A stretch of 64,000 nt of DNA from an uncultured archaeon (GCA_964534045.1 CAZHNO010000001.1:129786-193785); one strand, 5' to 3'. Counted from the stretch's first letter, positions 5,884 to 30,569 are shown. Translations and numbers: made by a program. Notes: generated by a model not told the origin, from the letters alone.

Positions 5884-8800
5884 TTACTTTTTCTTTTTTT
5901 GTATTTTTTGTGTTGAAATAAATGCTAACATTAAGAATGCTGCAATAAAAATTACTAATCCAGCAACTGTTTCTGGTAGAGATGGTATGTTGAATCCCGA
6001 GCCTGTTTGTGTTCCAATATTAAATGTCATTGGGTTGCCCGCTGTCCCTGTTACATTTCCATTTTCATCTGTTCCAAAGTAAGCCCCTTGATCTTTGAAT
6101 GCTTGGTTTAGTGGCATTTGTATTCCATTCTCTGGATACCATTGCCCCGTATTAGAATCAAACCAAAATGAACCATTTGGTCCTTGTGCAGTTCTCAAAG
6201 TTTCTGGTGCCGCCCCATTGTAAGATACTTTTGGGATTCCATTATCTGCATCAAATTCTAGTGTGTGTGTTTTTCCATCTGCGGTTTTGAATTGTATTGT
6301 GCCATCATCTAATTGTTTTAGTCCGCCAACAATTTCTTCATCCACCAATATTTTTCCAGTTTCTTTATCAATTACTCTAAAATAATCTTTACATTCACCT
6401 GTTTTGGGATCAACTTTTGCATAAAATTCATATATTTTTCCATCTGTTGTAAATTGTGTAAATGGACCCAAATGTTTCATTGATGTATTAAAGTTTTCTA
6501 CTCTCGCTAATCCTAATTGATCATTTGGATAACCTTCTGCTTCTAATTCTATTGCTGGTTGTTCACATTCTGTTTCAGGGTCTGTAATTGTTGTTGCTCT
6601 TGCTTTCATTCCTGAAACTTCTTTACTATTTAGAACGGCTTCTTTGTGTTGTCTTAACCAAACAACTAATTCATTTGTTTCTGGATTCAAAACAATCGAG
6701 CCGTGCTCAAAAGCCATTCCAATAAATTGTCCAGCTGAAATTTGTTTGTTTGCATCTTGTTCTAATCTTGCTTGCCAATAACCATCAATAATAAATCTTG
6801 CACCAAATTCTCCATAAACTCTATTTCCACTTCCTTCTAATTGTATTTTCCTATCTTGTACGAAAATATTTTCATAATTTTGTGTATTTATTGCTTGTAA
6901 ATTTCCAAACACTTGTGTTAATTCGTTTCCTGAATATTCTATTCCTGATTGTGCTTTGATTGCTTTTTGTATACAATCTAATACTTGTGCTTCTCTAATG
7001 TTTACTTCGCCAAGAGTGTTAATTTCAAAAACTATTTCTGAATTATTTGGTGCTGAAACTGTTGTAACTGTTTTTGGTATAACTTTTGCTGGGATTCTAT
7101 TGTCTTGTGTTGTTAGCCCAACAATTTCTGGTTTGTTTGAAACTACTTTCTTTCCATTAATTAAAATATCTCCATTTGCATAATCTTCAATCACTTCTGT
7201 GTTTCCATCTTTTGTTACTGAAACTCCATCAGTCTTTAATCCAATTGGCATTAAGTTATCTTTGAACCAAATGTAAAAGATTTCTTTTGCCATTGCATTT
7301 CCTGAGCTTGGTGGAAGCATTTCTATTGTTGCTTGTAATATGTTTGCTTGTTTTGCTTGTCCTGCAAAGTCATCAAATTCTTCTTTTATTGAACCGATTG
7401 ATTCTGCTACTGGATTATCAGTTTGTGATGTAAATTCATTAACTTTTTCAGTTAAATCAGCTATTGCCGAAGTTACTGTTTCATTTGACATTGTTTGTTT
7501 TGATTTTGCTTTTGCTTGTTCTTGACTTGGGGGAGAATAGAAATGTAAATAATATCCTTCTTTATCGTCAATACAATCTTGTAATTCAGGAGTAATTAAT
7601 ATTTGTTGAACTCCTGTTGCTATTAAACCAAAACCAGGATTTATTGCATATGCTAATGATTCAGGCGCAGAAACCAGTAATCCGGCAACATTTCCTGCCC
7701 AACCAAGTTTTAATTTTCTTAATTTTGCATCACAACTAGTTTTCTCATCATTTGCTGATGCAATATTTATTTCTTGTCCTTGAATTTCGCCTGTTGCGCC
7801 TTTTAAGTTTGAGTGGTGTACATACGCTATTAATGTTGTTCCTTCTTCTTTTGCAGTTGTTTCATCTACCGCTTCAACAATAAAACCACTTATATTTACT
7901 GGTGCTTTGATTGCGAAACCTAAATAATCTTGTTTTGAATTTATGCTCGCTGTACAACCTGAACAATTTTCATTATGGGAATAAAATGCAATGTCCATTA
8001 CTTCATCTCGCATAATGTTTGTGCTTCCTAATCCTCCTTCCCCACTATATTGTCTTAATTTTTCTCCTATTTGTGGTGAAAGAGTATCTGCTACTTCTTT
8101 TACCAAATAATTATGGACAAAAACAAAACCATTAATTACTTTTGTAAACAAATCTCCTTGGTCAGAGCCCTCATTTGCAAAAAAATCTATATATGAATCT
8201 TTGTAAATGTTATCTTGTCCTTGTGATACTATCATTGTTGTCCATGAGTCAGGAAGCATGTATGCTGAAAAGTTTTCATTTCCAAATCCTCTTTTCATTT
8301 GCCATAAACCAATTGGACCCAAAGCAACTTTTGCAAATGCAGCACTATTTAATTTTAGAGTGTAATAATCTTTAATCAAATTTTGTTCTTTTGCAAACAG
8401 AGCATCTAAAGCACTTAATGATTTTCTCTCATTAAATTCAACTCTTGTTGCTAATCCTCTTTGAACATTATTCAAGTTTATTTCTGCAATATTAATTCTT
8501 CCAGTTATTCTATCTTGTGTAATAACATTTGCAAATTCTGCAGGAGTTAGTTCTCTTGCTGGAGAATAAACTGTTTTGAATACATCCACTGTTGTTCCTG
8601 TTGCTGGATTATTTCTTAAAGCATTTACTGTTGTAGCATTCAATGGCAACATTCCTTGCCCAGGAACATTTACACTAAGCGTTCTATTACCTAATTTTGC
8701 TAACAAAGAATCTAAATCTGAAAGTGGGACTGTTTCAAATAATTCTGTTGGAGCAAGTTTGTATAATTGTACATTTCCAGTTGCTGCTCTAACCATTGAT

Positions 8801-10317
8801 GAATTAGTCCAATCACCAGTATCAGCAAAGGGTTTCAATAATCCTTTTGTGAAATTAAATGTTTCTCCAGTAGTTAAATCAACAAATCCTTCATCTGCTA
8901 CAAAACCTGCTTTTTTTACTGCAAGTCCTGCCCAACCAGTTAGTTCTTGATTTTGGTGAATCCATTGTGGAGCATCTAAGAAAACAACATCATCCCAAGA
9001 AAGATATTGATTTCCAACTCGTCTCCCATAATCAATCAAATCATTAACGCCATGTGGTGAAGATTGATATACTGATTTGGCTGCCTTTACTTGTTCATTA
9101 CTTGTGGCAGCAAATGCTTTTAAGTCATCTAATGCTTGGAAAAACTTTTTCTTTCCTTCAGGAGTTAAATTATTTAAAGGAGACTTTGCTACATCGAGTA
9201 CTTCATCAACATAGCCCCCAGCTCCTGCTGCAAAAGCTTTTTTACCAATTGTTAAATCTTTAAAATAAGTTCCTAAACCAAACTCATCTTTTAATGCATT
9301 ATATCTTTCAAATCTTTTTCTTCCTAACAATGTTAATGGAGTTTCACTAACCAAATTTTGTTTACCTTTTATCCATTTATTTACAGATTGTAATAATTTG
9401 TTCCCTGTATCTCCCTTAGGACCTGAAGTAATTAACCCTAATTGTTTTGCTGCGGAGTGGAACAAAGCTGGACCAAATGCAGATACAACCATTTCACTTG
9501 AAAACCATGAATTAAAATACTTATCAAAAACAGAGTAAGTTGAAATCATACAAGCATTGTTGTTACAAGTTGTTGCACTCTTCGCTGTGTATTGTTCGGT
9601 TTGGAAAGAATTTGCTATTTGTTCCCCTTGACTTAGTTGAACTATTTGTACATTCAAATCGTTTACATCATAAACTTGATTTTGCATTGCAGTAAATTCT
9701 TCTTCACTTAATCCAAGTGCTTTTTCTTTTGTAAAATCTGCAAAGGTTCCTGCAGCACTCACAAACATATTTGAAACACCCGTTCCAGACATTCTATAAT
9801 TCAAACCATTTCCATAAACACGACATTGTTCTTGTGACATATCTTTACATCTACCAACTCTGAGCGTGTCATCTAAAAGCAAACCAATACCAAATGGGCC
9901 TGAAATCATTCTTCCATCAAAAAAACTAAATCTATCTGGTGAAGCTGCTTGTGAAGGAGGAGATTCTTTTACCGCTGTTTTTCCATCATTATCTTTTCCA
10001 ACTAATTCTAAACCTTCTAAATTTATTCCATCAGCATTAACATCTTTTCCATCACCAATTTCTTCCCCTTGAAAGCCTTCATGAGTTAAATTCATTAAAG
10101 ATTTTGCTTCCATTGGAGTTAGGGCAGAAACATCACAAGTAAATCCTTGTGAACTAACAGGTGTTTGTTCACTCTCATTTGTATTAACATCACCATTTGT
10201 AGAATCGATTCCTTCTTCTTCAAAATATAATTGTGTTGAATAAGCAAAAGCAGGATTGCTAAATAAAAGGCAAAGTAATACTATGCCAACAAACAATCCT
10301 TTTTGGAAACTATTCAT
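5884..10317 (-). CDS. Giant (1477 aa) secreted surface protein with a C-terminal motif-TM-KKKK anchor
   Basis: The N-terminus is a Sec-type signal peptide (MNSFQKGLFVGIVLLCLLFSNPAFA/YST). The body is a long Thr/Asn/Gly-rich extracellular region. The C-terminus reads ...SLPETVAGLVIFIAAFLMLAFISTQKIQKKKK, that is, a motif, a TM helix and a basic cluster. Confidence 0.8.
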   Translation of the reverse strand: MNSFQKGLFVGIVLLCLLFSNPAFAYSTQLYFEEEGIDSTNGDVNTNESEQTPVSSQGFTCDVSALTPMEAKSLMNLTHEGFQGEEIGDGKDVNADGINLEGLELVGKDNDGKTAVKESPPSQAASPDRFSFFDGRMISGPFGIGLLLDDTLRVGRCKDMSQEQCRVYGNGLNYRMSGTGVSNMFVSAAGTFADFTKEKALGLSEEEFTAMQNQVYDVNDLNVQIVQLSQGEQIANSFQTEQYTAKSATTCNNNACMISTYSVFDKYFNSWFSSEMVVSAFGPALFHSAAKQLGLITSGPKGDTGNKLLQSVNKWIKGKQNLVSETPLTLLGRKRFERYNALKDEFGLGTYFKDLTIGKKAFAAGAGGYVDEVLDVAKSPLNNLTPEGKKKFFQALDDLKAFAATSNEQVKAAKSVYQSSPHGVNDLIDYGRRVGNQYLSWDDVVFLDAPQWIHQNQELTGWAGLAVKKAGFVADEGFVDLTTGETFNFTKGLLKPFADTGDWTNSSMVRAATGNVQLYKLAPTELFETVPLSDLDSLLAKLGNRTLSVNVPGQGMLPLNATTVNALRNNPATGTTVDVFKTVYSPARELTPAEFANVITQDRITGRINIAEINLNNVQRGLATRVEFNERKSLSALDALFAKEQNLIKDYYTLKLNSAAFAKVALGPIGLWQMKRGFGNENFSAYMLPDSWTTMIVSQGQDNIYKDSYIDFFANEGSDQGDLFTKVINGFVFVHNYLVKEVADTLSPQIGEKLRQYSGEGGLGSTNIMRDEVMDIAFYSHNENCSGCTASINSKQDYLGFAIKAPVNISGFIVEAVDETTAKEEGTTLIAYVHHSNLKGATGEIQGQEINIASANDEKTSCDAKLRKLKLGWAGNVAGLLVSAPESLAYAINPGFGLIATGVQQILITPELQDCIDDKEGYYLHFYSPPSQEQAKAKSKQTMSNETVTSAIADLTEKVNEFTSQTDNPVAESIGSIKEEFDDFAGQAKQANILQATIEMLPPSSGNAMAKEIFYIWFKDNLMPIGLKTDGVSVTKDGNTEVIEDYANGDILINGKKVVSNKPEIVGLTTQDNRIPAKVIPKTVTTVSAPNNSEIVFEINTLGEVNIREAQVLDCIQKAIKAQSGIEYSGNELTQVFGNLQAINTQNYENIFVQDRKIQLEGSGNRVYGEFGARFIIDGYWQARLEQDANKQISAGQFIGMAFEHGSIVLNPETNELVVWLRQHKEAVLNSKEVSGMKARATTITDPETECEQPAIELEAEGYPNDQLGLARVENFNTSMKHLGPFTQFTTDGKIYEFYAKVDPKTGECKDYFRVIDKETGKILVDEEIVGGLKQLDDGTIQFKTADGKTHTLEFDADNGIPKVSYNGAAPETLRTAQGPNGSFWFDSNTGQWYPENGIQMPLNQAFKDQGAYFGTDENGNVTGTAGNPMTFNIGTQTGSGFNIPSLPETVAGLVIFIAAFLMLAFISTQKIQKKKK

Positions 10318-16778: not shown

Positions 16779-16901
16779 AATTTTAACCTCCTTTAATTAA
16801 AGATAATTAACAAAAGAAAGCAAAGGTAGTATTTAAACTTTGTTAGTAAGTTGGCTTTGTGTAAGAAGTAAGGAAAACCCTTGACTTTCTACACAAGTTA
16901 A

Positions 16902-18158
16902 TTACTTTTTACACAGACTTGTATCAACCCCTAATTCATTAGTTTCATGTATCATTACTACTATGTTATGGCACAAAATCTTGAACAATAATTCGTTTAC
17001 TTGTGCAGTATAAGTTTTTGATTTTAAAGTATCATTGAATTTAGATTTAATCATGTGAAAAGTTGTTTCCGAATTACTTCTCAAGTGATAGTGTTTCATA
17101 AACTCTTCTTTGTTGTATTGGAAATAATGAAACATTTTTCGCCATAATCTGCCACGATTTCCTGTATGACAAGTAGCAGTAATATTCTTTGAATAAGGTA
17201 TGTATGCTTGTCCGCCCATTTCTGCAACTACATTATAACTTTCTCTTGAATTGTATGCTCCGTCTGCCGTTATTTCTTGAACATCAAAATTGTTTAATCT
17301 TTGAACAAGCGGTTTGAAGCTTGAAATGTCGCCTGTTCCTTCTCCGTAAGATTTAGTTATTTCTGCGGAGCATACAATATTTGTTTTCACTCCACTTAGA
17401 AGATGTGCTTTTAACCAAATATTCTTTTTTGTAGTTCCATGTTTTTCTTGACAATATTGATTAAATGAGTTAGTTCTGAAACCGCTACTATCTACTGCAA
17501 AATTCTTTTCTACACTCTTAAGAGTTTCTGCCGTCTTAGTAATCACATCTTTTAGAATTGGAGTTAGTTCTTCTTTTTGTAAGTAGTGTCCGATTGAAGC
17601 AAAACAAGGTTTCTTTTCAACAAATCCTTTTTCTTTTGCGTTATCTAAATCACTCATAAACCTTCTTAAAGAAAATTGTGTATAAACTTTTAGAGCAGAA
17701 GAAAAAAATAAATCTTTTTGGCTTATTTTTGGTCTTCCAAATTCATAAGGTGGTTCTTGAATATTAGAAGATAAATCGTTTAAGAGTTCTAAGAAGCGTG
17801 TTTTTTCTGTTTCTTGGGATTTGTTATAAACGCTCCATGCTTGAGGATAAGTTAAACGCTTAGTTTCAATATTAGTTACTCCGTTTTGAGTAGTCGCTTT
17901 TTGTAAATAGTATTCTACTGCGAAAGCGTGTTTGCATCTTACTTGTCTTAGTTGACAATCTGGACAATTACAATTATCCAAATGTTCTGAAACTAAATAT
18001 TTCTTTTTACTTGATTGACTACTTACTAAGTAACCTTCTTTTACTTTTGTTATTGCTCTTGTTTGAGCAATTATTTTTCCTTTTTCTTCTCTTTGATTTA
18101 TCATATTTAACCACCTTCTAATAATATATATTATATATATTATATAGTTTATGAACAT
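16902..18158 (-). CDS. Transposase with an N-terminal SWIM-type zinc finger and a C-terminal DDE domain
   Basis: The SWIM-like segment is CNCPDCQLRQVRCKHAF (CxC..C..CxH). The DDE-like segments are AVDSSGF, ITADGAYNS and SNSETTFHMIKSKF (IS4/IS5-like). Confidence 0.65.
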   Translation of the reverse strand: MFINYIIYIIYIIRRWLNMINQREEKGKIIAQTRAITKVKEGYLVSSQSSKKKYLVSEHLDNCNCPDCQLRQVRCKHAFAVEYYLQKATTQNGVTNIETKRLTYPQAWSVYNKSQETEKTRFLELLNDLSSNIQEPPYEFGRPKISQKDLFFSSALKVYTQFSLRRFMSDLDNAKEKGFVEKKPCFASIGHYLQKEELTPILKDVITKTAETLKSVEKNFAVDSSGFRTNSFNQYCQEKHGTTKKNIWLKAHLLSGVKTNIVCSAEITKSYGEGTGDISSFKPLVQRLNNFDVQEITADGAYNSRESYNVVAEMGGQAYIPYSKNITATCHTGNRGRLWRKMFHYFQYNKEEFMKHYHLRSNSETTFHMIKSKFNDTLKSKTYTAQVNELLFKILCHNIVVMIHETNELGVDTSLCKK

Positions 18159-18174
18159 AACTCTTTATAAATAG

Positions 18175-18192
18175 ATATGATATATATCATAT
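18175..18192. promoter_or_regulatory. Perfect 18-bp palindrome (atatgatatatatcatat) in the divergent promoter region; candidate operator
   Basis: Palindromy was verified by reverse-complementing the sequence. It lies about 30 bp upstream of the small RHH ORF and between the divergent transposase and MTase operons. A TA-rich TATA-like tract sits at 18124-18146. Confidence 0.4.
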
Positions 18193-18223
18193 ATAACAAA
18201 GATATTTAAAGGGGAAATACATT

Positions 18224-18372
18224 ATGAGTATGATGCCAAAGACAAAATATAAAGAACCATTTGTGCAAAAAGCAATTACAATAAGAAAAGACCAAGCTGA
18301 ATTTATACAAGACAATACTATTAATTTATCTAAATTTGTGCAAAAGAAATTAGATGAGTTGATGAAAAAATA
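18224..18372 (+). CDS. Small (49 aa) ribbon-helix-helix-like DNA-binding protein; possible R-M controller
   Basis: Hand translation gives MSMMPKTKYKEPFVQKAITIRKDQAEFIQDNTINLSKFVQKKLDELMKK. A beta-strand-like KAITIRK followed by two helices fits an RHH fold. It is immediately upstream of the MTase. Confidence 0.4.
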
Positions 18373-18419
18373 AGCTCGGCAAAGAACTAAGATTAAGTTT
18401 AATAATAAGTAATGGATTT

Positions 18420-19637
18420 TTGATGATTATGAAAAAAGAAAAACCAAAAGTCGTAAGTCTATTTTCTGGTTGTGGTGGGCTTGATTTAGGATTTAAACAA
18501 GCAGGATATGAAATAATTTGGGCAAACGATTTTGATAAAGATAGCGTTGAAACTTATAAAAGAAATATTGATGACAGAATAATTTTAGGAGATATCACAA
18601 AAATCCCAAGCTCACAAATACCAAAAAATGCAGATGTATTACTTGGTGGATTTCCTTGTCAAGGATTTTCAGTTGCAAACAATAAAAGAAATGTTGATGA
18701 TAAAAGAAACTTTTTGTATAAAGAAATGTTAAGAGTAATTAAAGATACTCAACCAAAATATTTTATTGCAGAAAATGTAAAAGGAATTTTATCACTTGGA
18801 AAAGGAAAAGTAATTGAAATGATAATTAAAGATTTTAATTCATTAGGATATAAAGTAGAAAAACCATTTGTAATAAATTGCTCATATTATGGAGTTCCAC
18901 AAAATAGAGAAAGAGTAATTATAATGGGAAACCGAATTAATGCACCAAATAAATTTCCTTTAGTAACACACAAAAATGGTTATCAAACTCCAATACCTGA
19001 TTTTATAAAACCTAAAAATTTTGAAAAATTACCTTATGTTATTTCAGTTAAAGAAGCTATAGGACATTTTCCTGAACCTGAAACTAAAGAAGGTAAGAAG
19101 ATACCTAACCATACTGCTTCAAATAATGTTCAAGGACATTATATTGCAAGAAAGAATGAAATAAAACAAGCAGATGTATGTGATTATCTAAAGTATTGGA
19201 GAGCAAAGAGAAAAATAACTACCCATAAAATTGATGAATTATTAGGATACAAGCATACTGCTGGGCATTGGTTTAGAAAAGATATTTCTGGCTCAATACC
19301 TTCTCCTGAAGATTGGTTAAAGCTAAAAGAAATTTTAAAATTTGATGACAAATTTGATAAATTAGTGACTGAAGTAGAAAAGCGTGAAATTAAATTTGAG
19401 CAATCATTAAGAATTACAAATTGGGATAGACCAAGTGACACAATAACTGCAAGTGGTCCAGAAATCCATGTTAATAAAAAAAGAAGATTGACTGCACGAG
19501 AATGTGCTACTCTTCAAAGTTTTCCTGATTATTTTATTTTTGAGGGTAGTTTGTCAAGCCAATATAGACAAATTGGAAATGCTGTTCCGCCATTAATTGG
19601 AAAACATTTTGCTAAAGAAATTAAAAAGAATTTATGA
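18420..19637 (+). CDS. DNA (cytosine-5)-methyltransferase, type II R-M modification subunit
   Basis: Motif I is FSGCGGLDLGF. Motif IV is GGFPCQGFS, with the catalytic PCQ. Motif VI is ENV (AENVKG). The C-terminus has QIGNAVPP. Confidence 0.85.
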   Translation: MMIMKKEKPKVVSLFSGCGGLDLGFKQAGYEIIWANDFDKDSVETYKRNIDDRIILGDITKIPSSQIPKNADVLLGGFPCQGFSVANNKRNVDDKRNFLYKEMLRVIKDTQPKYFIAENVKGILSLGKGKVIEMIIKDFNSLGYKVEKPFVINCSYYGVPQNRERVIIMGNRINAPNKFPLVTHKNGYQTPIPDFIKPKNFEKLPYVISVKEAIGHFPEPETKEGKKIPNHTASNNVQGHYIARKNEIKQADVCDYLKYWRAKRKITTHKIDELLGYKHTAGHWFRKDISGSIPSPEDWLKLKEILKFDDKFDKLVTEVEKREIKFEQSLRITNWDRPSDTITASGPEIHVNKKRRLTARECATLQSFPDYFIFEGSLSSQYRQIGNAVPPLIGKHFAKEIKKNL

Positions 19638-20330
19638 TTAATTTCTTTTATAGATTATTCTTTCTCGCCAGTCATCTATTGAAGTTAATTTTTTTATGTC
19701 AAATCTGATGTGTTCTAAGTTATTACTTTTTGTAGGATATGATTTTACTCCTGCAAGAATTGTTTTGTGTGTATTAAAAAATTGTCCGTTTGGTATGCAA
19801 ATGAAAGAAATTTGTTCTACAAGGTTAGTTGTTGACCAGATTATTCTAAGAAAGTAGGTTATATTTGGCACACTTCCAAATAATTTGTGTTTTTCATATC
19901 GGTGAAGTTTTGGTTTCCAAACAAATTCTTTTCCATTACCTTTAATGACTTTGTGAGAATTGTTATAATCAAATGATGTTTGATTTTGTCTTATATCCAT
20001 TCTGTTTGTGTTTCCTTTTACATCTCCGTCTGTATTAAGTATTGTTTTTGCGTCAATATGGACAATTGCATCTCCGCATTCATAACATGAGTCTGATGCT
20101 CCTTGCATTGAAGCTATTCCCCAATCTAATCGTCTTGCAATCATTGCGTTCATTATGTTTTCTACTCCAGATTCTATTGGATTTACTTTAGTTGATTGGG
20201 TATAGTTGGGTATGTTTTTTTGGCTATTTATTTCATTAATAAATCTTCCAATGTTATTTGATATGATATTGCTTATTATAGTATGATATTTTTTCTCTAA
20301 TTCTTCTAATTCAATATCTGATAAAGTCAT
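19638..20330 (-). CDS. Candidate restriction endonuclease, convergent partner of the MTase
   Basis: It is convergent with and abuts the C5-MTase, the classic type II R-M arrangement. There is a possible PD-(D/E)xK-like GDAIVHIDAK. No recognisable family could be assigned. Confidence 0.35.
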   Translation of the reverse strand: MTLSDIELEELEKKYHTIISNIISNNIGRFINEINSQKNIPNYTQSTKVNPIESGVENIMNAMIARRLDWGIASMQGASDSCYECGDAIVHIDAKTILNTDGDVKGNTNRMDIRQNQTSFDYNNSHKVIKGNGKEFVWKPKLHRYEKHKLFGSVPNITYFLRIIWSTTNLVEQISFICIPNGQFFNTHKTILAGVKSYPTKSNNLEHIRFDIKKLTSIDDWRERIIYKRN

Positions 20331-20445
20331 ACTAATCTAATATTTTATTAAATATAAAAATCTTTGGAATAGACTTTTTACACAACTTTCCGACTTTATA
20401 CACAAGTAACACTATTTACACAAAGCTTAGTAAGTTAGGTTAATA

Positions 20446-22335
20446 TTATTCATTTACAATTATTCTAAAACCTGGCCCTATTACAGTTTCCCAAGGTGGA
20501 TTGAAAGGAACTTGATCAGATCCTTCATCACAATTTGCACAAATTGCTCTATCTGCGCATCTAACTCCTGCCCCCCCAATTGAATTTGTTCCACGAACAG
20601 AACGATATAATCTTCCATTCATCAATTCATGTGGTGCACTTGGTCCAATCGGATCTACAAAAACACTATCTAGAGAATTAGTATAAATATAATAATCATA
20701 AATATCAAGGGCCCATTCACCTACATTACCATGTAAATCATATAAACCAAAATTATTTGGTGTTGCTAAACCAACTTCTTTCACAGGCATTGTTGGATAC
20801 CATGATGAAGAAATTTGGGCAAGTTCAGGGCACACTGATGGATTAGCATAATAATAATCTCCATCAATATCTCCACAAGTTATTTGTTTTCCATTTGGAG
20901 GAGTATTTAATCCAGTTGAAGTTCCTGCTCTACAAATATATTCCCATTGTGATTCTGTTGGTAAATCTATTTCAAGACCAGTTTTTTGTTTTAACTTTCC
21001 AATAAAAGAACTCGAACTTGGTGCTTTGTTGCCTGTTGGCCAACTCCCACCTCTCACAATACCCCAATGCACAGAGTGCACTGGCAATTTGTCCCCAACT
21101 TGTGGCCCAGGAGTAAAACTAATCCCTGTTCCTTCAATTGTATATGTTTGATATCCAAATGCACTTGCGTAGCCACTAAAACTACTTCCATAAACTAAAT
21201 CCCATTGTTTTTGTGTTATTTCAAAAACACCTGTGTAAAAACTTTTTGTTAATTTTACAATATGTAAATCTTCATCAATATCTGGATTTCCCTCATGTGG
21301 AAGTCTTCTTCCAGGTTCTCCTTCTGGTGAACCCATAGTGAAAGTACATGCTGGGACTTTTCGCAAAATAATTTTTGTTGTTTTATAAGCACTATTTGAT
21401 AACAAATCACTTGGTTTACTTGTTAGTTCAGTTACTGGATAATTAGTTGCGCTTGGCCCTCCTGAAATATCTATTACCAAATATTCATTTGTTAAATAAG
21501 CAGATAGGTTTTCTTCTGCAATACATTCCTCTAAATTTGCTGCAACACAAACATTATTCTGACAAGTTTTTCCTGTATCACATTTTGTTCCTTTTCCACA
21601 ATTATTACAAGGATTTGTAATTGCTATTGTTTGCCCACACTCAATTGTTGATGGTGAAGGACAAGGTGTGCAATCAGTTGTTTTTGATATGCACTTTCCT
21701 GATTGGCATGTTTGACTTGGTGGGCAAGAACCACAAAAGCCCTCACAACCATCAGAACCACACGCTTTATCTTTGCAATCAGGCTCACAATCTTTTGTTT
21801 TAGGATTGGTGTCAGAATCTATTTCTTCATCCTCTAATTTTTTTCCAAAAGAAACATCACACAAAATATCACAACAATCTTCATAACCTTCTGAAGCATA
21901 AATACAAACTTCATCACTAGGATAACATTTTACATAAACTCTCGCTTCAACATTTTGTTGAATGTCAATCATTTTTCCTTCTGCCAAAACTTTTCCAAAT
22001 GCTAAGTTTGAATAGAAAGTGAAACATTCATCTGACAAGCCAGTCACATCTCTCAAATTAGTTGAAGTAAAACCAGTCCCTTCAACAAAGACAAGTGGAT
22101 TTTCTGAGTAAAATACCTTTCCATTTGGTGACTCTTTTGCTGAATTAATAAGAGAATAAAATTCATTAATTGAAGTGCTTATTCTAAGACTTTGAAAATA
22201 TGTCATTGATGAAAGAATTAAACCAAAAATAACTAAACCAATTATTCCATCAATAAGTAAACGAAAAACAGTTCCACTTTGTGCTTTGTTATCCAAAAAA
22301 TTTTTTGAAGCTTTTTTTGATAAAAATTTTTTCAT
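20446..22335 (-). CDS. Pilin-like N-terminus + cysteine-rich module + FGE-sulfatase (SUMF1/EgtB-like) domain fusion protein (629 aa)
   Basis: The N-terminus is ...DNKA/QSGTVFRLLIDGIIGLVIFGLIL, a class III-like signal. A Cys-rich stretch follows (CEPDCKDKACGSDGCEGFCGSCPPSQTCQSGKC...). The C-terminus has LPTESQWEYICRAG, GLYDLHGNVGEWALD, RSVRGT...GVRCADRA and GPGFRI, matching FGE-sulfatase domain motifs. It lacks the catalytic CxxxxC pair of bona fide FGE. Confidence 0.5.
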   Translation of the reverse strand: MKKFLSKKASKNFLDNKAQSGTVFRLLIDGIIGLVIFGLILSSMTYFQSLRISTSINEFYSLINSAKESPNGKVFYSENPLVFVEGTGFTSTNLRDVTGLSDECFTFYSNLAFGKVLAEGKMIDIQQNVEARVYVKCYPSDEVCIYASEGYEDCCDILCDVSFGKKLEDEEIDSDTNPKTKDCEPDCKDKACGSDGCEGFCGSCPPSQTCQSGKCISKTTDCTPCPSPSTIECGQTIAITNPCNNCGKGTKCDTGKTCQNNVCVAANLEECIAEENLSAYLTNEYLVIDISGGPSATNYPVTELTSKPSDLLSNSAYKTTKIILRKVPACTFTMGSPEGEPGRRLPHEGNPDIDEDLHIVKLTKSFYTGVFEITQKQWDLVYGSSFSGYASAFGYQTYTIEGTGISFTPGPQVGDKLPVHSVHWGIVRGGSWPTGNKAPSSSSFIGKLKQKTGLEIDLPTESQWEYICRAGTSTGLNTPPNGKQITCGDIDGDYYYANPSVCPELAQISSSWYPTMPVKEVGLATPNNFGLYDLHGNVGEWALDIYDYYIYTNSLDSVFVDPIGPSAPHELMNGRLYRSVRGTNSIGGAGVRCADRAICANCDEGSDQVPFNPPWETVIGPGFRIIVNE

Positions 22336-24902: not shown

Positions 24903-27200
24903 TTAATTATTTTCTTCAGGTTCTTTTGCTTTTTGAACCATTGGTATTAGTTCTGTTAAAACCCAATTTTTATATTTTCCCAATAATTGATTGTAATCAA
25001 CTGTTCCATTTTCTTCAATTATTTCTTCTTTTAAAATCATGAGTTTGTTGGTTGCTTTGCTAGTAAATTCTGATTCTAATAATTTTTTCAAATTCAATTC
25101 ATTCTTTTTTTCTACAAGGAAAAGTTTTGCATTTCCTCTTAATCTTATTTCTGCCCAAATATCATTTACTGTCAAGCCAGAAATACTTTGTATTTTTTTT
25201 AGCAAATCAGATTCTTTCAAATTATCTTCTTGTAATTCAAGAGTGTCTTTTGCTGCATCATATTTCATTAAATCTAATAAGCCACCTTCTCTACTTGGAT
25301 CATCATTCCAATGTTTTTTAATTTCAGTAATTTCCACTACTCTTCTATGCCTTACAAGAGAGCCTTTAAATCTTATTGGACGAGCAACAATTACTAAATC
25401 AGTTGCTTTGAATGATGTTGTTGGAACACCTAAATCATTTACAACTCTATCCCATACTGAATAAGCTGAATCAGCGTGAATTGTTCCCATTACAACATTT
25501 CCAGCTGCTCCAACACGCATTGCTTCATACAATACTTTTGCTTCTGTGCTTCTTACTTCACCCAAAATTAATGCGGAGTCACCTAAACGCAAAGCTGTTC
25601 TTAGTGCTTCTTCTGGTGCAACTTCTGTTTCTGTTTTTGAAACACTAATGGCACTTTTTGTTTTCATTCTCTGAATGTTAAAACCAATTTCTTTCAAATA
25701 TGGAACAGGGAGTTCTTGAGTGTCTTCTTGAATTAAAATTCTTGAATTTTGTGGAATTTCTTGTATTACTGCACCAAGCAAAGAAGTTTTTCCTGAACCT
25801 CTACTTCCCGCAATAATTGTTGTGGTTTGCATATCAATAAAGAAAGAAATCATTCCTGCTGCAAGTGGATTTAGATAATTATTATCAATGAATTGTTCAA
25901 GAGTCCACGGAGTTAATTTGTGTAAACGAAAAGCAAAAGCTGGTCCACTGGGAGAAAGCGGAGGACCAATTACTGCCACACGAGTTTCTAATTCTTGCAA
26001 ATCAAAATCAAGCACTGGGTGTGCTTCATCAAATGGACGAGAAGACATTGCTCTTAATTTTGAAATCAAAGAGTTGGCTTCATTTTCTGTGAAAGTAACA
26101 TTTGTTTGACATTGTCCATAATCACTATGCACAAGATAAATTGGTTTTCCACCAATCGGTGAATCTAAATAAATATCAGTAATTTTTCTATCATTCAATA
26201 ATACTTCTAAAATTCCATAACCAACTGTGTATCTTGCAACAACCTTACTTAATGCAGACATTTCATTAGCATTTAATTGAACTTTATGAAATTTTGCTAC
26301 TTCTTTTATTGTTGCTTCATACATTCTTTCAAAATATTTTCTTGAAGTGGCAACCGTGCTCAAAGAAGTTTTTCCTGGTTGGTAAGAAGCAACTATTTCT
26401 CTTGTTTTACTTAAAACAAAATATTGATCTGGTGCAAGAGAATATTCTGGAGGATTAATAAAATACATTTTTTCAACTTTGTTTGGATCAGAAAAAACTT
26501 GTACTGTTGAATCACTAACAGTATATTCGTCCAATAAATTTAGTTCATCCATTCCTTTGAAAGAAAGTTTTGAACCAATGAAAGAAGGTTTTATTTCAAC
26601 TTCAAAAAGAGCTTTGTAAATTACTTTTGTATCAGGAACTTCTTGCAATTCAGTAAGAATTTTTTTTGCTCTAATAACCATTAGTGTTGCATCAAACCTA
26701 TTTCTCAAATCAATTAATGTTGCAATAAATGGTTCAGCACATTCAACATATCTTTGGTCACTTTGCTTCATCATTGATTCTTGTTTTTTTGATTCATTCA
26801 CAAGAGTTAAGTAAGCTAATAATGGATCAAAGTTAATCAAATCATTTGCAACTTTTACAATTAATCTGTGTCTGTCAGGAAAATATTGTTCACATTCTTT
26901 TATTGGTTTACCCAAATGATTATAACTCCAAATACTTTCTACAACTAATTTTTGTGCAAGGTTGGCTATTTCCATTAGCATTTGTGTTTGTTCTTTTTCA
27001 TAAACTCTTTCATAAACTTCTGCTAAAACAATTCTATCAGCTTCAACTTGTTGCAACACTTTTATTGCGTGAAATCTACAATGATGATCTTCTGCAATAG
27101 ACGCTGAATAAGCACAATGTTTACAATCAAATATTAGTGTTCTGCTACCACCAACATCTTTGACAACAAAATCTCCAACCTTAAAGCCACCAATCTTCAT
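24903..27200 (-). CDS. FlaI/GspE-family secretion ATPase with a long N-terminal extension (765 aa), set 2
   Basis: The Walker A motif is IIAGSRGSGKTSLLG. The Walker B is ALILGEVRS. The His box is VVMGTIHADSA. The extra about 300-aa N-terminus has a Cys/His cluster (CKHCAYSASIAEDHHCRFH). Confidence 0.75.
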   Translation of the reverse strand: MKIGGFKVGDFVVKDVGGSRTLIFDCKHCAYSASIAEDHHCRFHAIKVLQQVEADRIVLAEVYERVYEKEQTQMLMEIANLAQKLVVESIWSYNHLGKPIKECEQYFPDRHRLIVKVANDLINFDPLLAYLTLVNESKKQESMMKQSDQRYVECAEPFIATLIDLRNRFDATLMVIRAKKILTELQEVPDTKVIYKALFEVEIKPSFIGSKLSFKGMDELNLLDEYTVSDSTVQVFSDPNKVEKMYFINPPEYSLAPDQYFVLSKTREIVASYQPGKTSLSTVATSRKYFERMYEATIKEVAKFHKVQLNANEMSALSKVVARYTVGYGILEVLLNDRKITDIYLDSPIGGKPIYLVHSDYGQCQTNVTFTENEANSLISKLRAMSSRPFDEAHPVLDFDLQELETRVAVIGPPLSPSGPAFAFRLHKLTPWTLEQFIDNNYLNPLAAGMISFFIDMQTTTIIAGSRGSGKTSLLGAVIQEIPQNSRILIQEDTQELPVPYLKEIGFNIQRMKTKSAISVSKTETEVAPEEALRTALRLGDSALILGEVRSTEAKVLYEAMRVGAAGNVVMGTIHADSAYSVWDRVVNDLGVPTTSFKATDLVIVARPIRFKGSLVRHRRVVEITEIKKHWNDDPSREGGLLDLMKYDAAKDTLELQEDNLKESDLLKKIQSISGLTVNDIWAEIRLRGNAKLFLVEKKNELNLKKLLESEFTSKATNKLMILKEEIIEENGTVDYNQLLGKYKNWVLTELIPMVQKAKEPEENN

Positions 27201-29963: not shown

Positions 29964-30569
29964 ATGCAAAAAAAGAATTCATTTTTTGAAAATATAAATA
30001 ATTACACAAAACCTTTACAAAAATATATTAAAACACAAGAAGAAAAAATTAAAAAAAATCCAAAAAAACAATTGAGTTTTTTTATTCTCGGGTTTATATT
30101 ATTTTATTTAATTTTTACAACTATATTAATTCCATTTCAAATGCCAATAAAAAATTTTACTGGAGAAGTGGTTGTTGGTTTTTTGAGTGTTCAAGGTTTG
30201 GAAATTGAAAAAAATGGTTTTGTTTTGGATGAATTTGGGGAAGAAAATTATACTTTCACTCTAAAAGAAAAAAGTCAAGTTTTTTTTATTTCATGGTTAT
30301 GCACAGGAATATTAGAAATAATAATTTTGTTAGGAGCAATTTTTGCTAGCTTTGGAGTTAATTGGAGAAAGAAATTATTAGGAATGAGTGGAGCAATAGT
30401 TGCTGGAATAATTTTTAACTTTATTAGAATTTGGTTAACAATAAACATTTTTATTTTAACAAATGCTGAAACAACAAATATTGCGCATGATTTGTTATTC
30501 AGATTGGTGCTTTTTATATACATTTCAGCATATTATATTATTTGGTTTAATTACACTCAAAGGAAATGA
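29964..30569 (+). CDS. Small polytopic membrane protein, possible short archaeosortase/exosortase-family protein (201 aa)
   Basis: It has about 5 TM helices. A conserved-looking Cys sits in a TM (ISWLCTGILE). An N..R motif (FNFIRIW) lies about 42 aa downstream, and a second Arg (LFRLV) follows. This spacing is reminiscent of the Cys/Arg active-site layout of ArtA-like enzymes. The assignment is speculative. Confidence 0.3.
   Translation: MQKKNSFFENINNYTKPLQKYIKTQEEKIKKNPKKQLSFFILGFILFYLIFTTILIPFQMPIKNFTGEVVVGFLSVQGLEIEKNGFVLDEFGEENYTFTLKEKSQVFFISWLCTGILEIIILLGAIFASFGVNWRKKLLGMSGAIVAGIIFNFIRIWLTINIFILTNAETTNIAHDLLFRLVLFIYISAYYIIWFNYTQRK

What the first reader, a model, noticed from the sequence alone, without database searches (positions are those of the whole stretch)
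16883..20409. R-M / transposase island inserted into the pilus gene cluster, flanked by 18-bp direct repeats
The direct repeats are gactttctacacaagtta (16883-16900) and gactttatacacaagtaa (20392-20409). They bracket exactly four genes: the SWIM+DDE transposase, the RHH protein, the C5-MTase and the convergent candidate REase. Extra TACACAA motifs lie on both flanks. An inverted copy sits at about 16857-16866 (tttgtgtaag). The genes on either side are all pilin-like or pilus-assembly genes on the same strand. The island therefore appears to split a once-contiguous operon (ATPase, platform, pilin-FGE, then five pilins). This is a compact example of a mobile type II R-M cassette, a possible defence island.
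Basis: seen in the sequence. Interest (0 to 1): 0.6.

Follow-up and report, generated by a model that had tools for sequence, protein, structure and literature searches.

The report
Archaeal transposon carrying a restriction-modification system
A 3.6-kb jumping gene related to the bacterial element IS903 has carried a complete DNA restriction-modification defence system into the pilus gene cluster of a DPANN archaeon, and its relatives carry other restriction systems in the same slot.

Summary
The two 18-bp direct repeats are real (16/18 identical). They are not the edges of the island and not a target duplication. They are two of six copies of a 13-nt motif (ACTTTNTACACAA) lying inside the ends of a 3,575-bp transposon (16853-20427). 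The true ends are terminal inverted repeats (GCTTTGTGTAA, exact 11/11), flanked by a perfect 9-bp target duplication, TAGTAAGTT. A related genome (L103, about 91% identical) shows the empty site: FGE-domain gene, 97 bp, pilin gene, with no motif. The transposase has the IS903 catalytic core (DDE, YREK) plus an N-terminal SWIM-like zinc finger. The GGCTTTGT termini and the 9-bp duplication also match IS903. The cargo is a C5 methyltransferase and a convergent BglI/SfiI/MwoI-fold endonuclease; this pair also occurs, 79% identical, without any transposase in another genome. Twelve related elements keep the same 3+3 motif layout, and those with both ends readable have 9-bp duplications. Verdict: an undescribed cargo-carrying variant of IS903-like elements in DPANN archaea.

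The parts
16844..16852 (.). Left copy of the 9-bp target-site duplication, TAGTAAGTT
   Evidence: The exact repeat TTAGTAAGTT occurs only at 16843-52 and 20427-36 in the window. The 9-bp length is set by relatives with perfect 9-bp duplications. The empty site L103 has a single related sequence here.
16853..20427 (-). Whole transposon (3,575 bp): IS903-like backbone plus R-M cargo. The transposase reads on the minus strand.
   Evidence: Terminal inverted repeats plus the target duplication. Homology to L018, L026 and L070 stops exactly at 16853. Homology to L020, L078 and L087 stops at 20426-20429.
16853..16869 (-). Transposase-side terminal inverted repeat GGCTTTGTGTAAGAAGT. It contains motif copy 1 (16857-16869), which is inverted relative to the other five copies.
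   Evidence: The first 8 nt are identical to the IS903 terminus GGCTTTGT.
16854..16898 (-). Hairpin formed by terminal copy 1 and subterminal copy 2, with a T-rich loop. Probable end-of-transposase terminator or insulator.
   Evidence: A comparable hairpin is predicted in 11 of 12 family members, and the inner stem differs in sequence while staying paired in several (GTCC/GGAC, GTGCTT/AAGCAC, CAAGG/CCTT). L022's minimum-energy fold differs. The function is inferred.
16883..16900 (+). It is subterminal motif copy 2 (core 16884-16896).
16904..16916 (+). Subterminal motif copy 3 (ACTTTTTACACAG). It overlaps the last transposase codons and lies just inside the stop codon.
   Evidence: The same position is conserved in relatives.
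16902..18104 (-). Transposase, 400 aa (an upstream in-frame ATG at 18158 would give 418 aa). It has an N-terminal CxCx2Cx6CxH SWIM-like zinc finger and a DDE_Tnp_1 catalytic core.
   Evidence: Pfam DDE_Tnp_1 E=1.3e-15; SWIM E=0.0026, below cutoff. NCBIfam IS5_2 gives 117.5 bits against a cutoff of 140. BLASTP against IS903 Tnp gives E=4e-13; D205, D281 and E346 align with the IS903 DDE residues, and Y(2)R(3)E(6)K is present. P0001 is the 100%-identical 400-aa form.
17896..17914 (+). Internal end-like sequence inside the transposase gene (17/19 match to the cargo-side terminus). Significance unknown.
   Evidence: Inverted repeat I16. An equivalent sequence is present in L018.
18105..18223 (.). 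Divergent promoter/operator region between the transposase and the small ORF. It holds an AT-rich inverted repeat (18125-18145 / 18175-18195, 90% complementary) and a conserved TTTATAAA box.
   Evidence: I10, I1. The stretch CATATCTATTTATAAAGA is shared with L018. Homology to relatives with the type-A small ORF begins at 18179. The function is inferred.
18224..18373 (+). 49-aa small ORF, a putative ribbon-helix-helix-like DNA-binding protein. It is a backbone gene, not cargo.
   Evidence: It is 83% identical to the 47-aa ORF of L078/L087, whose cargo is different. A small ORF sits divergent from the transposase in all 13 elements. Fold evidence is only weak.
18423..19637 (+). Cargo: C5 cytosine DNA methyltransferase (404 aa from the ATG at 18423; the ORF opens at TTG 18420).
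   Evidence: Pfam DNA_methylase E=1e-80. TIGR00675 dcm. The catalytic domain's best PDB match is M.HaeIII, E=2e-52. PADLOC MTase_II E=1e-100.
19638..20330 (-). Cargo: type II restriction endonuclease of the BglI/SfiI/MwoI fold (230 aa). It is convergent with the methyltransferase and abuts it.
   Evidence: AlphaFold model with pLDDT 86. Foldseek: BglI E=2e-13, SfiI E=1e-8. Precomputed Pfam PF27366 MwoI_N. Invariant D80...D93-x-K95. Homologues pair with C5 methyltransferases.
18441..20331 (.). Extent of the R-M cassette shared (78.6% nt) with L106, a transposase-free defence island. It is absent from the other family members.
   Evidence: L106 context.
20368..20427 (+). Cargo-side end: three motif copies in one orientation (20373-85, 20393-405, 20411-23), ending in the terminal inverted repeat ...TTACACAAAGCT.
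   Evidence: This 60-bp block is 73-92% identical in L078, L087, L020, L022, L027 and L028.
20428..20436 (.). Right copy of the 9-bp target-site duplication, TAGTAAGTT
16830..16837 (-). TATA-like box (TTTAAATA on the minus strand) of the downstream pilin gene, 15 bp from the transposon end.
   Evidence: It is conserved in the empty site L103.

Best explanation
The region 16853-20427 is one autonomous DDE transposon (a 'transporter IS') of an IS903-like lineage found mainly in DPANN archaea. Its backbone has three parts. The first is a 400-aa transposase: an IS903-type DDE/YREK core with an N-terminal SWIM-like zinc finger. The second is a small DNA-binding gene transcribed divergently from the transposase. 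The third is a pair of structured ends, each with three copies of the 13-nt motif TTGTGTAnAAAGT spaced 18-20 bp apart. The outermost copies form the terminal inverted repeats GGCTTTGTGTAA. Between the small gene's stop codon and the inner edge of the far end lies a cargo slot. Here the slot holds a complete type II R-M system, a C5 methyltransferase plus a BglI/SfiI/MwoI-fold endonuclease. The element inserted into the spacer between an FGE-domain pilin-like gene and a pilin gene and duplicated 9 bp (TAGTAAGTT). Shown: the boundaries, the target duplication, the empty site, the protein families and folds, the conserved end layout, the different cargo in relatives, and a transposase-free copy of the same R-M cassette elsewhere. 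Inferred: the six motifs are transposase binding sites, perhaps read by the zinc-finger domain. The chemistry is inferred to be IS903-like, with a 9-bp staggered target cut. The small protein is inferred to regulate the divergent promoter. The hairpin at the transposase end is inferred to terminate or insulate transcription. The R-M cargo is inferred both to defend the host and to stabilise the element by post-segregational killing.
For: Boundaries. The exact 11-nt terminal inverted repeat and the flanking exact direct repeat each occur only twice in 64 kb. Homology to relatives ends exactly at these points. Empty sites. L103 aligns collinearly across the junction and has no motif. L108 has an uninterrupted cluster. 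L102 is a 100%-identical filled site from another sample. IS903 affinity. The shared terminus is GGCTTTGT. The target duplication is 9 bp in window, L001, L020, L022+L023, L027, L028, L030 and L031, and in distant members L036, L037, L043, L046 and L067/L093. The DDE residues and the YREK signature align with IS903 Tnp at E=4e-13. Mobility. The element encoding P0006 is found with two different flanks. Layout. The 3+3 motif arrangement, with one inverted copy, is seen in all 12 relatives that have readable ends. In L031 all six copies carry the same variant, TGTGTAAGTAWT. Cargo. The methyltransferase and endonuclease are identified. The cassette is 78.6% identical to transposase-free L106. Relatives carry type IIG or M+S systems and other methyltransferases in the same slot. 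DNA methyltransferase families occur in 15 of 127 cargo-side ORFs against 1 of 77 control-side ORFs, Fisher p=0.006. Host. The ATPase is 75-84% identical to proteins named from Candidatus Diapherotrites or Iainarchaeum.
Against: Nothing here tests activity. Only one copy of this exact element is seen, and its transposition, methylation and cleavage are untested. NCBIfam's IS5 model scores below its cutoff (117.5 against 140). The SWIM hit is below Pfam's cutoff. The ribbon-helix-helix assignment of the small ORF is weak. Three of the 13 close relatives (L001, L029, L031) have cargo with no recognisable R-M gene. The census rests on a few dozen metagenomic contigs, many of them truncated. How cargo is exchanged is unknown. 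The one-base asymmetry of the termini (G at 16853; T at 20427, read as A in the transposase orientation) leaves the exact end-points uncertain by 1 bp.
Confidence: 0.85

Rival explanations
1. One reading: the 18-bp direct repeats are the insertion scar. They would be a long target duplication or att-like sites of a site-specific R-M/transposase island, and an empty site would retain one copy.
For: The repeats are real, statistically unexpected, and bracket exactly the four genes. Insertion of R-M units with long target duplications, and an R-M element bounded by 16-bp direct repeats derived from an IS, are documented in bacteria (PMC2853133, PMC2875022).
Against: The empty site L103 has no copy of the repeat. 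The same motif, in the same 3+3 arrangement, flanks related transposases at unrelated loci in other genomes, so it belongs to the element and not to the target. A perfect 9-bp duplication and terminal inverted repeats lie outside the 18-bp repeats.
Confidence: 0.03
2. Two separate events: a simple IS (transposase only) landed next to an R-M island that was already there, or the reverse. The four genes would then not be one mobile unit.
For: The R-M cassette exists elsewhere without a transposase (L106). R-M genes are often merely adjacent to transposases (PMC2853133).
Against: There is no end-like motif between the transposase and the R-M genes; the only internal match lies inside the coding sequence at 17896. 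The single pair of terminal repeats and the single 9-bp duplication enclose all four genes. The empty sites lack both modules together. Twelve relatives place their cargo in the same slot within the same ends.
Confidence: 0.05
3. The TACACAA motif is a host regulatory or intergenic motif, for example a pilin-operon promoter element, and only by coincidence flanks the island.
For: Both motif clusters lie upstream of minus-strand genes (the pilin gene and the endonuclease gene).
Against: Six of the eight matches in 64 kb are at the two ends, and none lies upstream of any other pilin-like gene. The motif is absent from L103 and L108. It co-varies with the transposase lineage.
Confidence: 0.02
4. 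The element is a dead relic: correctly delimited but no longer able to move, with an R-M system that may be decayed or a solitary methyltransferase.
For: Only one copy of this exact element was found, and always at the same site (L102 is the same junction). The termini differ at the outermost base. The subterminal copies differ at 1-2 positions.
Against: All four ORFs are intact, with the catalytic residues conserved. The target duplication is perfect (9/9) and the terminal repeat is 11/11 identical, which points to a recent event. A 67%-identical sister element occurs at two sites.
Confidence: 0.15

Closest known systems
IS903 (IS5 family, IS903 group)
   Same: The transposase core is of DDE_Tnp_1 type. 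D/D/E and Y(2)R(3)E(6)K align with IS903 at E=4e-13. The termini begin GGCTTTGT in both. The target duplication is 9 bp. The cargo-side flank shows TTY at -4 to -2 in most insertions, resembling the WTTYA half of the published IS903 target motif (PMC2577343, Table 1).
   Different: IS903 is about 1.06 kb, has one gene and has simple 18-bp inverted repeats. This element is 3.6 kb (relatives 3-7.5 kb). Its transposase is about 80-90 aa longer at the N-terminus and carries a SWIM-like zinc finger. It has a divergent small gene, a cargo slot, and three motif copies per end. Identity to IS903 Tnp is only 24%. NCBIfam's IS5 model scores below its cutoff. The hosts are mainly DPANN archaea.
Transporter IS (tIS) / unit transposons with passenger genes
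   Same: A single transposase and one pair of terminal inverted repeats enclose passenger genes that can be lost only by events independent of transposition (definition as in PMC9330008).
   Different: In my literature searches I found no tIS lineage whose members carry different R-M systems in one fixed slot, and none described from DPANN archaea. The searches cover only the open-access library.
Transposon-like R-M units of Furuta, Abe & Kobayashi 2010 (PMC2853133)
   Same: R-M genes are enclosed by imperfect inverted repeats and a short target duplication (8 bp there), and an empty site is available for comparison.
   Different: Those units have no transposase of their own, and the authors could not say what moves them. 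They are bacterial, and the paper states that no archaeal case survived its selection. Here the transposase lies inside the unit and the family can be traced.
PluTI element of Photorhabdus (PMC2875022)
   Same: It is an R-M-carrying putative mobile element whose terminal regions hold short direct repeats identical to part of an IS.
   Different: In the window the direct repeats are internal sites of a complete transposon that has its own inverted termini and its own transposase.
Tn7 and phage Mu ends (multiple transposase-binding sites per end)
   Same: Several spaced copies of a short motif lie in each end, and the two ends are asymmetric (my own knowledge of Tn7 TnsB sites and Mu L1-L3/R1-R3; not tested here).
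   Different: The transposase family is unrelated. In those systems the sites in the two ends are inverted relative to each other, whereas here five of the six copies share one orientation and only the outermost copy at the transposase end is inverted. No accessory targeting proteins are encoded.
BglI / SfiI / MwoI type II restriction enzymes with C5 methyltransferases
   Same: The endonuclease model superposes on BglI (TM 0.74) and SfiI. The Pfam family is MwoI_N. A D...DxK motif is invariant. The gene pair is convergent.
   Different: Identity to the solved enzymes is 12-16%. No PADLOC model matches it. The recognition sequence is unknown.

Membership tests
IS5 family, IS903 group | DDE transposase of the DDE_Tnp_1 type with the Y(2)R(3)E(6)K signature | tested here: met
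   Pfam DDE_Tnp_1 E=1.3e-15. D205, D281 and E346 and the stretch YHLRSNSETTFHMIK align with IS903 D/D/E and YNRRSIAETAMYRVK.
IS5 family, IS903 group | Score above the curated cutoff of a family model | tested here: not met
   NCBIfam NF033579 transpos_IS5_2 scores 117.5 bits against a cutoff of 140 and matches only residues 141-400.
IS5 family, IS903 group | Terminal inverted repeats beginning GGC | tested here: met
   The transposase end reads GGCTTTGTGTAAGAAGT. The cargo end reads (A)GCTTTGTGTAAATAGT, and GGC in several relatives. IS903 reads GGCTTTGTTGAATAAATC.
IS5 family, IS903 group | 9-bp target-site duplication | tested here: met
   Window TAGTAAGTT, plus 12 further elements with perfect 9-bp duplications.
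IS5 family, IS903 group | Compact single-gene IS of about 1 kb | tested here: not met
   The element is 3,575 bp with four genes, and relatives are 3.0-7.5 kb. It is therefore filed as a cargo-carrying derivative, not as an ordinary IS903-group IS.
Type II restriction-modification system | DNA methyltransferase with the conserved catalytic domain | tested here: met
   PF00145 E=1e-80 over the whole profile. M.HaeIII and M.HhaI are the best PDB matches. PADLOC MTase_II.
Type II restriction-modification system | Adjacent separate endonuclease with a nuclease fold and a catalytic motif | tested here: met
   BglI/SfiI fold. Invariant D80, D93 and K95. Adjacency to C5 methyltransferases is conserved at 44% and 86% identity.
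Type II restriction-modification system | Matching specificity of the methyltransferase and the endonuclease, and activity of both | not testable with these tools
   This needs methylome data, a REBASE comparison or biochemistry.
Transporter IS / unit transposon | Passenger genes inside one pair of terminal inverted repeats together with the transposase, and one target duplication around the whole | tested here: met
R-M insertion with long target duplication (Kobayashi type) | The flanking direct repeats are copies of a sequence present once at the empty site | tested here: not met
   The 18-bp repeat is absent from the empty site L103. Only the 9-bp sequence region is shared.
C-protein-controlled R-M system | The small regulator gene belongs to the R-M unit and moves with it | tested here: not met
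   The 49-aa ORF is 83% identical to that of L078/L087, which carry a different R-M gene. It is absent from the transposase-free copy of the same R-M cassette in L106.

The most novel reading that the evidence does not exclude
The family does not insert at random. In 5 of 13 independent insertions the transposase-side end lies exactly 15 bp (the 9-bp duplication plus 6 bp) upstream of a TATA-like octamer, T[AT]TAA[AG]TA, of a gene that reads away from the element. Two further elements (L028, L030) have a TATA-like box at the mirrored position on the other flank. This is what would be expected if the transposase, possibly through its extra zinc-finger domain, targets archaeal promoter DNA or the TBP/TFB-bent pre-initiation complex. 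The element would then dock just upstream of the BRE/TATA region, where it disrupts neither the gene nor its promoter. That would make it a promoter-targeting, defence-carrying transposon, loosely analogous to the targeting of Ty3 to Pol III initiation sites.
Probability: 0.3. Interest if true: 0.8.

Novelty: new variant of a known kind. Interest (0 to 1): 0.62.

Why it matters
R-M systems are known to be mobile, but the vehicle is usually unclear. The classic survey (PMC2853133) found transposon-like R-M units with no transposase and no archaeal examples. Here the vehicle can be read in full: an IS903-like transposase, structured ends, and a fixed cargo slot. Relatives fill the slot with type II, type IIG-like or M+S systems and other methyltransferase genes. 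The same R-M cassette also occurs elsewhere without the backbone. This gives a concrete and testable route for defence-gene exchange in DPANN archaea, which have tiny genomes and for which little is known about mobile elements. It also offers a compact natural cargo-carrying DDE transposon with defined ends, and a possible case of insertion targeted next to promoters. For annotation, the lesson is practical: short direct repeats near an island may be internal transposase sites and not the insertion scar.

Tried and rejected
1. Exact-protein look-ups of the window transposase and of P0001 found nothing. Near relatives had to be used instead.
2. A generic search for inverted repeats in more distant loci gave many chance hits. 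I accepted only those starting GGCTTTG and carrying a 9-bp duplication.
4. A single-sequence AlphaFold model of the 49-aa ORF gave one long helix, which does not decide the ribbon-helix-helix question. Pfam gave only sub-threshold CcdA/RHH/MazE hits for the small ORFs.
5. tRNA and Rfam scans of the window found nothing, so a tRNA-targeted integrative element was ruled out. No integrase is present either.
6. NCBIfam on neighbouring ORFs did not help identify the host. Homologues of the ATPase did.
7. I considered the small ORF as a C-protein of the R-M system and rejected this.
8. I considered a symmetric IS903-type target motif (WTTYA-N9-TRAAW). Only the left half (TTY) is visible.
9. Literature searches for a described R-M-carrying IS903-like or DPANN transposon family found none. 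The library covers open-access papers only, and ISfinder and TnCentral could not be consulted.

Full report
**1. The observation**

GACTTTCTACACAAGTTA lies at 16883-16900 and GACTTTATACACAAGTAA at 20392-20409, 16/18 identical.
- They are not a pair. They are two of six copies of a 13-nt motif, ACTTTNTACACAA.
  - Left copies: 16857-69 (inverted), 16884-96 and 16904-16.
  - Right copies: 20373-85, 20393-405 and 20411-23.
  - Spacing is 18-20 bp. Only two weak one-mismatch matches occur elsewhere in the 64 kb. Eight matches were found against 1.6 expected from shuffles.
- The motif is therefore not a common intergenic motif of this genome.

**2. The real boundaries**

- Outside the 18-mers lies an exact 11-nt inverted repeat, GCTTTGTGTAA. 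It occurs at 16854-64 on the plus strand and at 20416-26 on the minus strand. These are its only exact copies in the window.
- Abutting it is an exact direct repeat, TTAGTAAGTT, at 16843-52 and 20427-36. It also occurs only twice in the window.
- Relatives fix the details. Homology to L018, L026 and L070 stops at 16853. Homology to L020, L078 and L087 stops at 20426-29.
- Related elements have perfect 9-bp duplications:
  - L020 CACAAAACG; L001 CAACTAACA; L027 CCAATTTAA.
  - L028 TTACAAATA; L030 TGAAAACCA; L031 GCTTTTAGT.
  - The L022 cargo end paired with the L023 transposase end: GTTATTATG.
  - Distant, GC-rich members L036, L037, L043, L046 and L067/L093.
- The element is therefore 16853-20427 (3,575 bp), and its target duplication is TAGTAAGTT (16844-52 and 20428-36).

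**3. Empty sites**

- L102, from another sample, is 100% identical and shows the same filled junction.
- L103 is about 91% identical over the pilin genes. It runs from the end of the FGE-domain gene through a 97-bp spacer into the pilin gene.
  - The window flanks, rejoined with one copy of the duplication, align collinearly with L103 across the junction.
  - No TACACA motif occurs there.
- L108 (GCA_041657605.1) has ATPase (84% identity), platform protein (72%) and a run of pilin-like genes, with no transposase, R-M genes or motif.
- So the island is an insertion.

**4. The genes**

- *Transposase, 16902-18104(-).*
  - It is 400 aa, and P0001 is the identical database form.
  - It has a DDE_Tnp_1 core (E=1.3e-15) and a sub-threshold SWIM hit over CNCPDCQLRQVRCKH.
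  - NCBIfam's IS5_2 model matches residues 141-400 but scores below its cutoff.
  - Against an IS903 copy fetched from a Klebsiella plasmid (L107), BLASTP gives E=4e-13. D205, D281 and E346 align with the IS903 residues at CDS positions 136, 208 and 274. From memory these are the published D121/D193/E259, offset by 15 residues. The Y(2)R(3)E(6)K signature is present.
  - The IS903 terminus GGCTTTGTTGAATAAATC shares its first 8 nt with this element's GGCTTTGTGTAAGAAGT.
- *49-aa ORF, 18224-18373(+).* It looks ribbon-helix-helix-like, but the evidence is weak: CcdA at E=0.087 and an uninformative AlphaFold model.
- *Methyltransferase, 18423-19637(+).* It is a full-length C5 enzyme.
- *230-aa ORF, 19638-20330(-).* It is a restriction endonuclease.
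  - The AlphaFold model has pLDDT 86.
  - Foldseek gives BglI at E=2e-13 (TM 0.74) and SfiI at E=1e-8.
  - The precomputed Pfam family is MwoI_N. D80, D93 and K95 are invariant across 35 homologues.
  - Homologues at 44% and 86% identity sit convergent with 410-425-aa C5 methyltransferases.

**5. The family**

- The transposase has 3,387 homologues at E<=1e-5. The named ones are mostly DPANN archaea (Micrarchaeota, Diapherotrites/Iainarchaeota).
- The window's host is of the same kind. Its FlaI-like ATPase is 75-84% identical to proteins named from Candidatus Diapherotrites or Iainarchaeum.
- Every relative at >=58% transposase identity with readable ends keeps the same architecture.
  - The cargo end has three motif copies in one orientation.
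  - The transposase end has two copies in that same orientation plus an inverted terminal copy.
  - The last two copies are predicted to form a hairpin with a T-rich loop in 11 of 12 elements. The inner stem changes sequence while staying paired in several. L022's minimum-energy fold is different.
- In L031 all six copies carry the same variant, TGTGTAAGTAWT. That is what co-evolution of binding sites with their own transposase would produce. Binding itself is inferred.
- All 13 elements have a small ORF (45-70 aa) divergent from the transposase. Two clear sequence types (A and B) exist, together with RHH-like and MazE/AbrB-like variants.
  - The window's type B ORF is 83% identical to that of L078/L087, which carry different cargo.
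  - The ORF therefore belongs to the backbone and not to the R-M system.

**6. The cargo**

- Pairwise DNA comparison divides the window element into three blocks.

| Block | Window coordinates | Found in |
|---|---|---|
| Backbone, cargo-side end | 20427-20368 | Relatives, 73-92% identical |
| R-M cassette | 20331-18441 | Absent from all other family members; 78.6% identical to L106 |
| Backbone, small ORF + transposase + end | 18373-16853 | Relatives |

- In L106 the cassette sits without a transposase in a defence island containing Vsr, PDDEXK, GmrSD, NERD and PLD genes.
- Relatives fill the same slot with other genes.

| Element | Cargo in the slot |
|---|---|
| L018 | 1,078-aa type IIG R-M-S fusion |
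| L078/L087 | 796-aa N6-MTase with S domain |
| P0003 contig | 811-aa N6-MTase with HSDR_N domain |
| L028, L020 | 1,267-aa and 1,368-aa N6_Mtase/Eco57I proteins |
| L021, L022, L030 | Separate M + S genes |
| L027 | N4/N6 methyltransferase with a winged-helix gene |
| L001, L029, L031 | No recognisable R-M gene (L031 has a NYN-domain gene) |

- At least 10 of the 13 elements carry methyltransferase or R-M genes.
- Across 51 loci, DNA methyltransferase Pfam families are the commonest hits among ORFs within 4 kb on the cargo side. They occur in 15 of 127 such ORFs, against 1 of 77 ORFs on the far side (Fisher p=0.006).
- A 44%-identical Planctomycetaceae element (L009) also carries an N6-MTase.

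**7. Mechanism (largely inferred)**

- By analogy with IS903, the transposase would bind the ends, cleave at GGCTTTG, and insert with a 9-bp stagger.
- The three sites per end and the extra zinc-finger domain have no counterpart in IS903.
- The divergent promoter region (18105-18223) holds a 21-nt AT-rich inverted repeat and a TTTATAAA box shared with L018. It is a plausible operator for the small protein.
- The R-M cargo would restrict incoming DNA. As is established for type II systems generally, it would also penalise loss of the element. This was not tested here.

**8. An unexpected regularity**

- In 5 of 13 independent insertions (window, L018, L020, L021, L023) a TATA-like octamer starts exactly at +16 from the transposase-side end. 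These are the only five matches to that octamer anywhere in the 60-nt flanks.
- None of 100,000 random placements of these hits put all five at +16.
- In the window this octamer is the TTTAAATA box at 16830-37, which is also conserved in the empty site L103.
- L028 and L030 have TATA-like sequences at the mirrored position on the other flank.
- This lies beyond the 5-bp flanks of the published IS903 target motif, WTTYA-N9-TRAAW (PMC2577343). It suggests docking next to promoters, but the sample is small.

**9. Comparison with the literature**

- R-M units flanked by inverted repeats with 8-bp duplications, but lacking a transposase, were described in bacteria. That survey recovered no archaeal case (PMC2853133).
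- An R-M element with IS-derived 16-bp direct repeats (PluTI) and IS-linked R-M movement are also known.
- Transporter ISs are a recognised category (PMC9330008).
- I found no description of an IS903-like lineage with this end architecture and serial R-M cargo, nor of R-M-carrying transposons in DPANN. ISfinder could not be checked.

**10. Verdict**

- The "mobile R-M cassette" idea is right. The repeat-as-scar idea is wrong.
- The element is best described as a new cargo-carrying variant of IS903-like transposons.

Noticed in passing
window 16830-16837; L018 4858-4865; L020 8578-8585; L021 3430-3437; L023 2021-2028: A TATA-like octamer, T[AT]TAA[AG]TA, starts exactly 16 nt beyond the transposase-side end in 5 of 13 independent insertions. 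L028 and L030 have a TATA-like box at the mirrored position on the cargo-side flank. This may reflect insertion targeted next to promoters.
   Followed up: partly
window 17896-17914: A sequence inside the transposase gene (codons for EYYLQKA) matches the cargo-side terminus at 17 of 19 positions. The equivalent sequence is present in L018. It could be an internal binding site, a cryptic end, or coincidence with a conserved peptide.
   Followed up: no
L022 8720 versus L023 2006 (also L024, L025): The element encoding the identical transposase P0006 has two different transposase-side flanks. GTTATTATG matches the cargo-side duplication of L022, and the other flank is ACAACCAAG. So there are two insertion sites, or the L022 assembly is chimeric.
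   Followed up: partly
L106 1-12699: The same methyltransferase + endonuclease cassette (78.6% nt) lies with no transposase in a defence island containing Vsr, PDDEXK, GmrSD/SLFN, NERD and PLD genes, with an integrase at the far end.
   Followed up: partly
L104 2974-5925 / L105: Two adjacent MwoI_N-family genes (345 aa and 226 aa) lie next to a C5 methyltransferase and near a reverse-transcriptase gene (RVT_1). This may be a heterodimeric variant of the endonuclease.
   Followed up: no
L009, L006, L036, L037, L043, L046, L067/L093: Relatives with 40-44% transposase identity occur in GC-rich contigs, including MAGs labelled Planctomycetaceae (L009) and Xanthobacteraceae (L006). Those in which ends were found (all but L006) have GGCTTTGC termini, and L036, L037, L043, L046 and L067/L093 also have 9-bp duplications and 1.2-4 kb of extra genes. 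L009 carries an N6-MTase and L043 a GHKL-ATPase-like gene. The lineage spans both prokaryotic domains.
   Followed up: partly
window 24903-27200: The FlaI-like pilus ATPase is 765 aa, without an intein. Several homologues at 61-86% identity (P0202, P0203, P0219, P0221, P0247 and others) are about 1,270-1,290 aa and carry intein/homing-endonuclease Pfam domains.
   Followed up: no
window 20446-22335: The 629-aa gene upstream of the insertion fuses a pilin-like N-terminus (class III signal-peptide-like KAQSGTVFRLL...) to an FGE-sulfatase domain. Its L108 homologue is only 160 aa and covers the N-terminal part alone.
   Followed up: partly
window 5884-10317, 31324-39513, 39884-48367, 50007-57080; 29964-30569: Four giant ORFs (1,477-2,827 aa) lie near an exosortase/archaeosortase-family gene. 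They are presumably sorted surface proteins. The 64-kb window contains no tRNA or Rfam hit.
   Followed up: no
L020 8249-8500; L022 8285-8656; L028 10234-10951; L030 5612-6141; L031 10581-11282: Several relatives have a second, smaller cargo position between the transposase stop codon and the subterminal motifs. It holds 66-233-aa ORFs, and in L031 a NYN-domain protein with a PADLOC HEC-09 hit. The window element has none, because its stop codon abuts the motif.
   Followed up: partly
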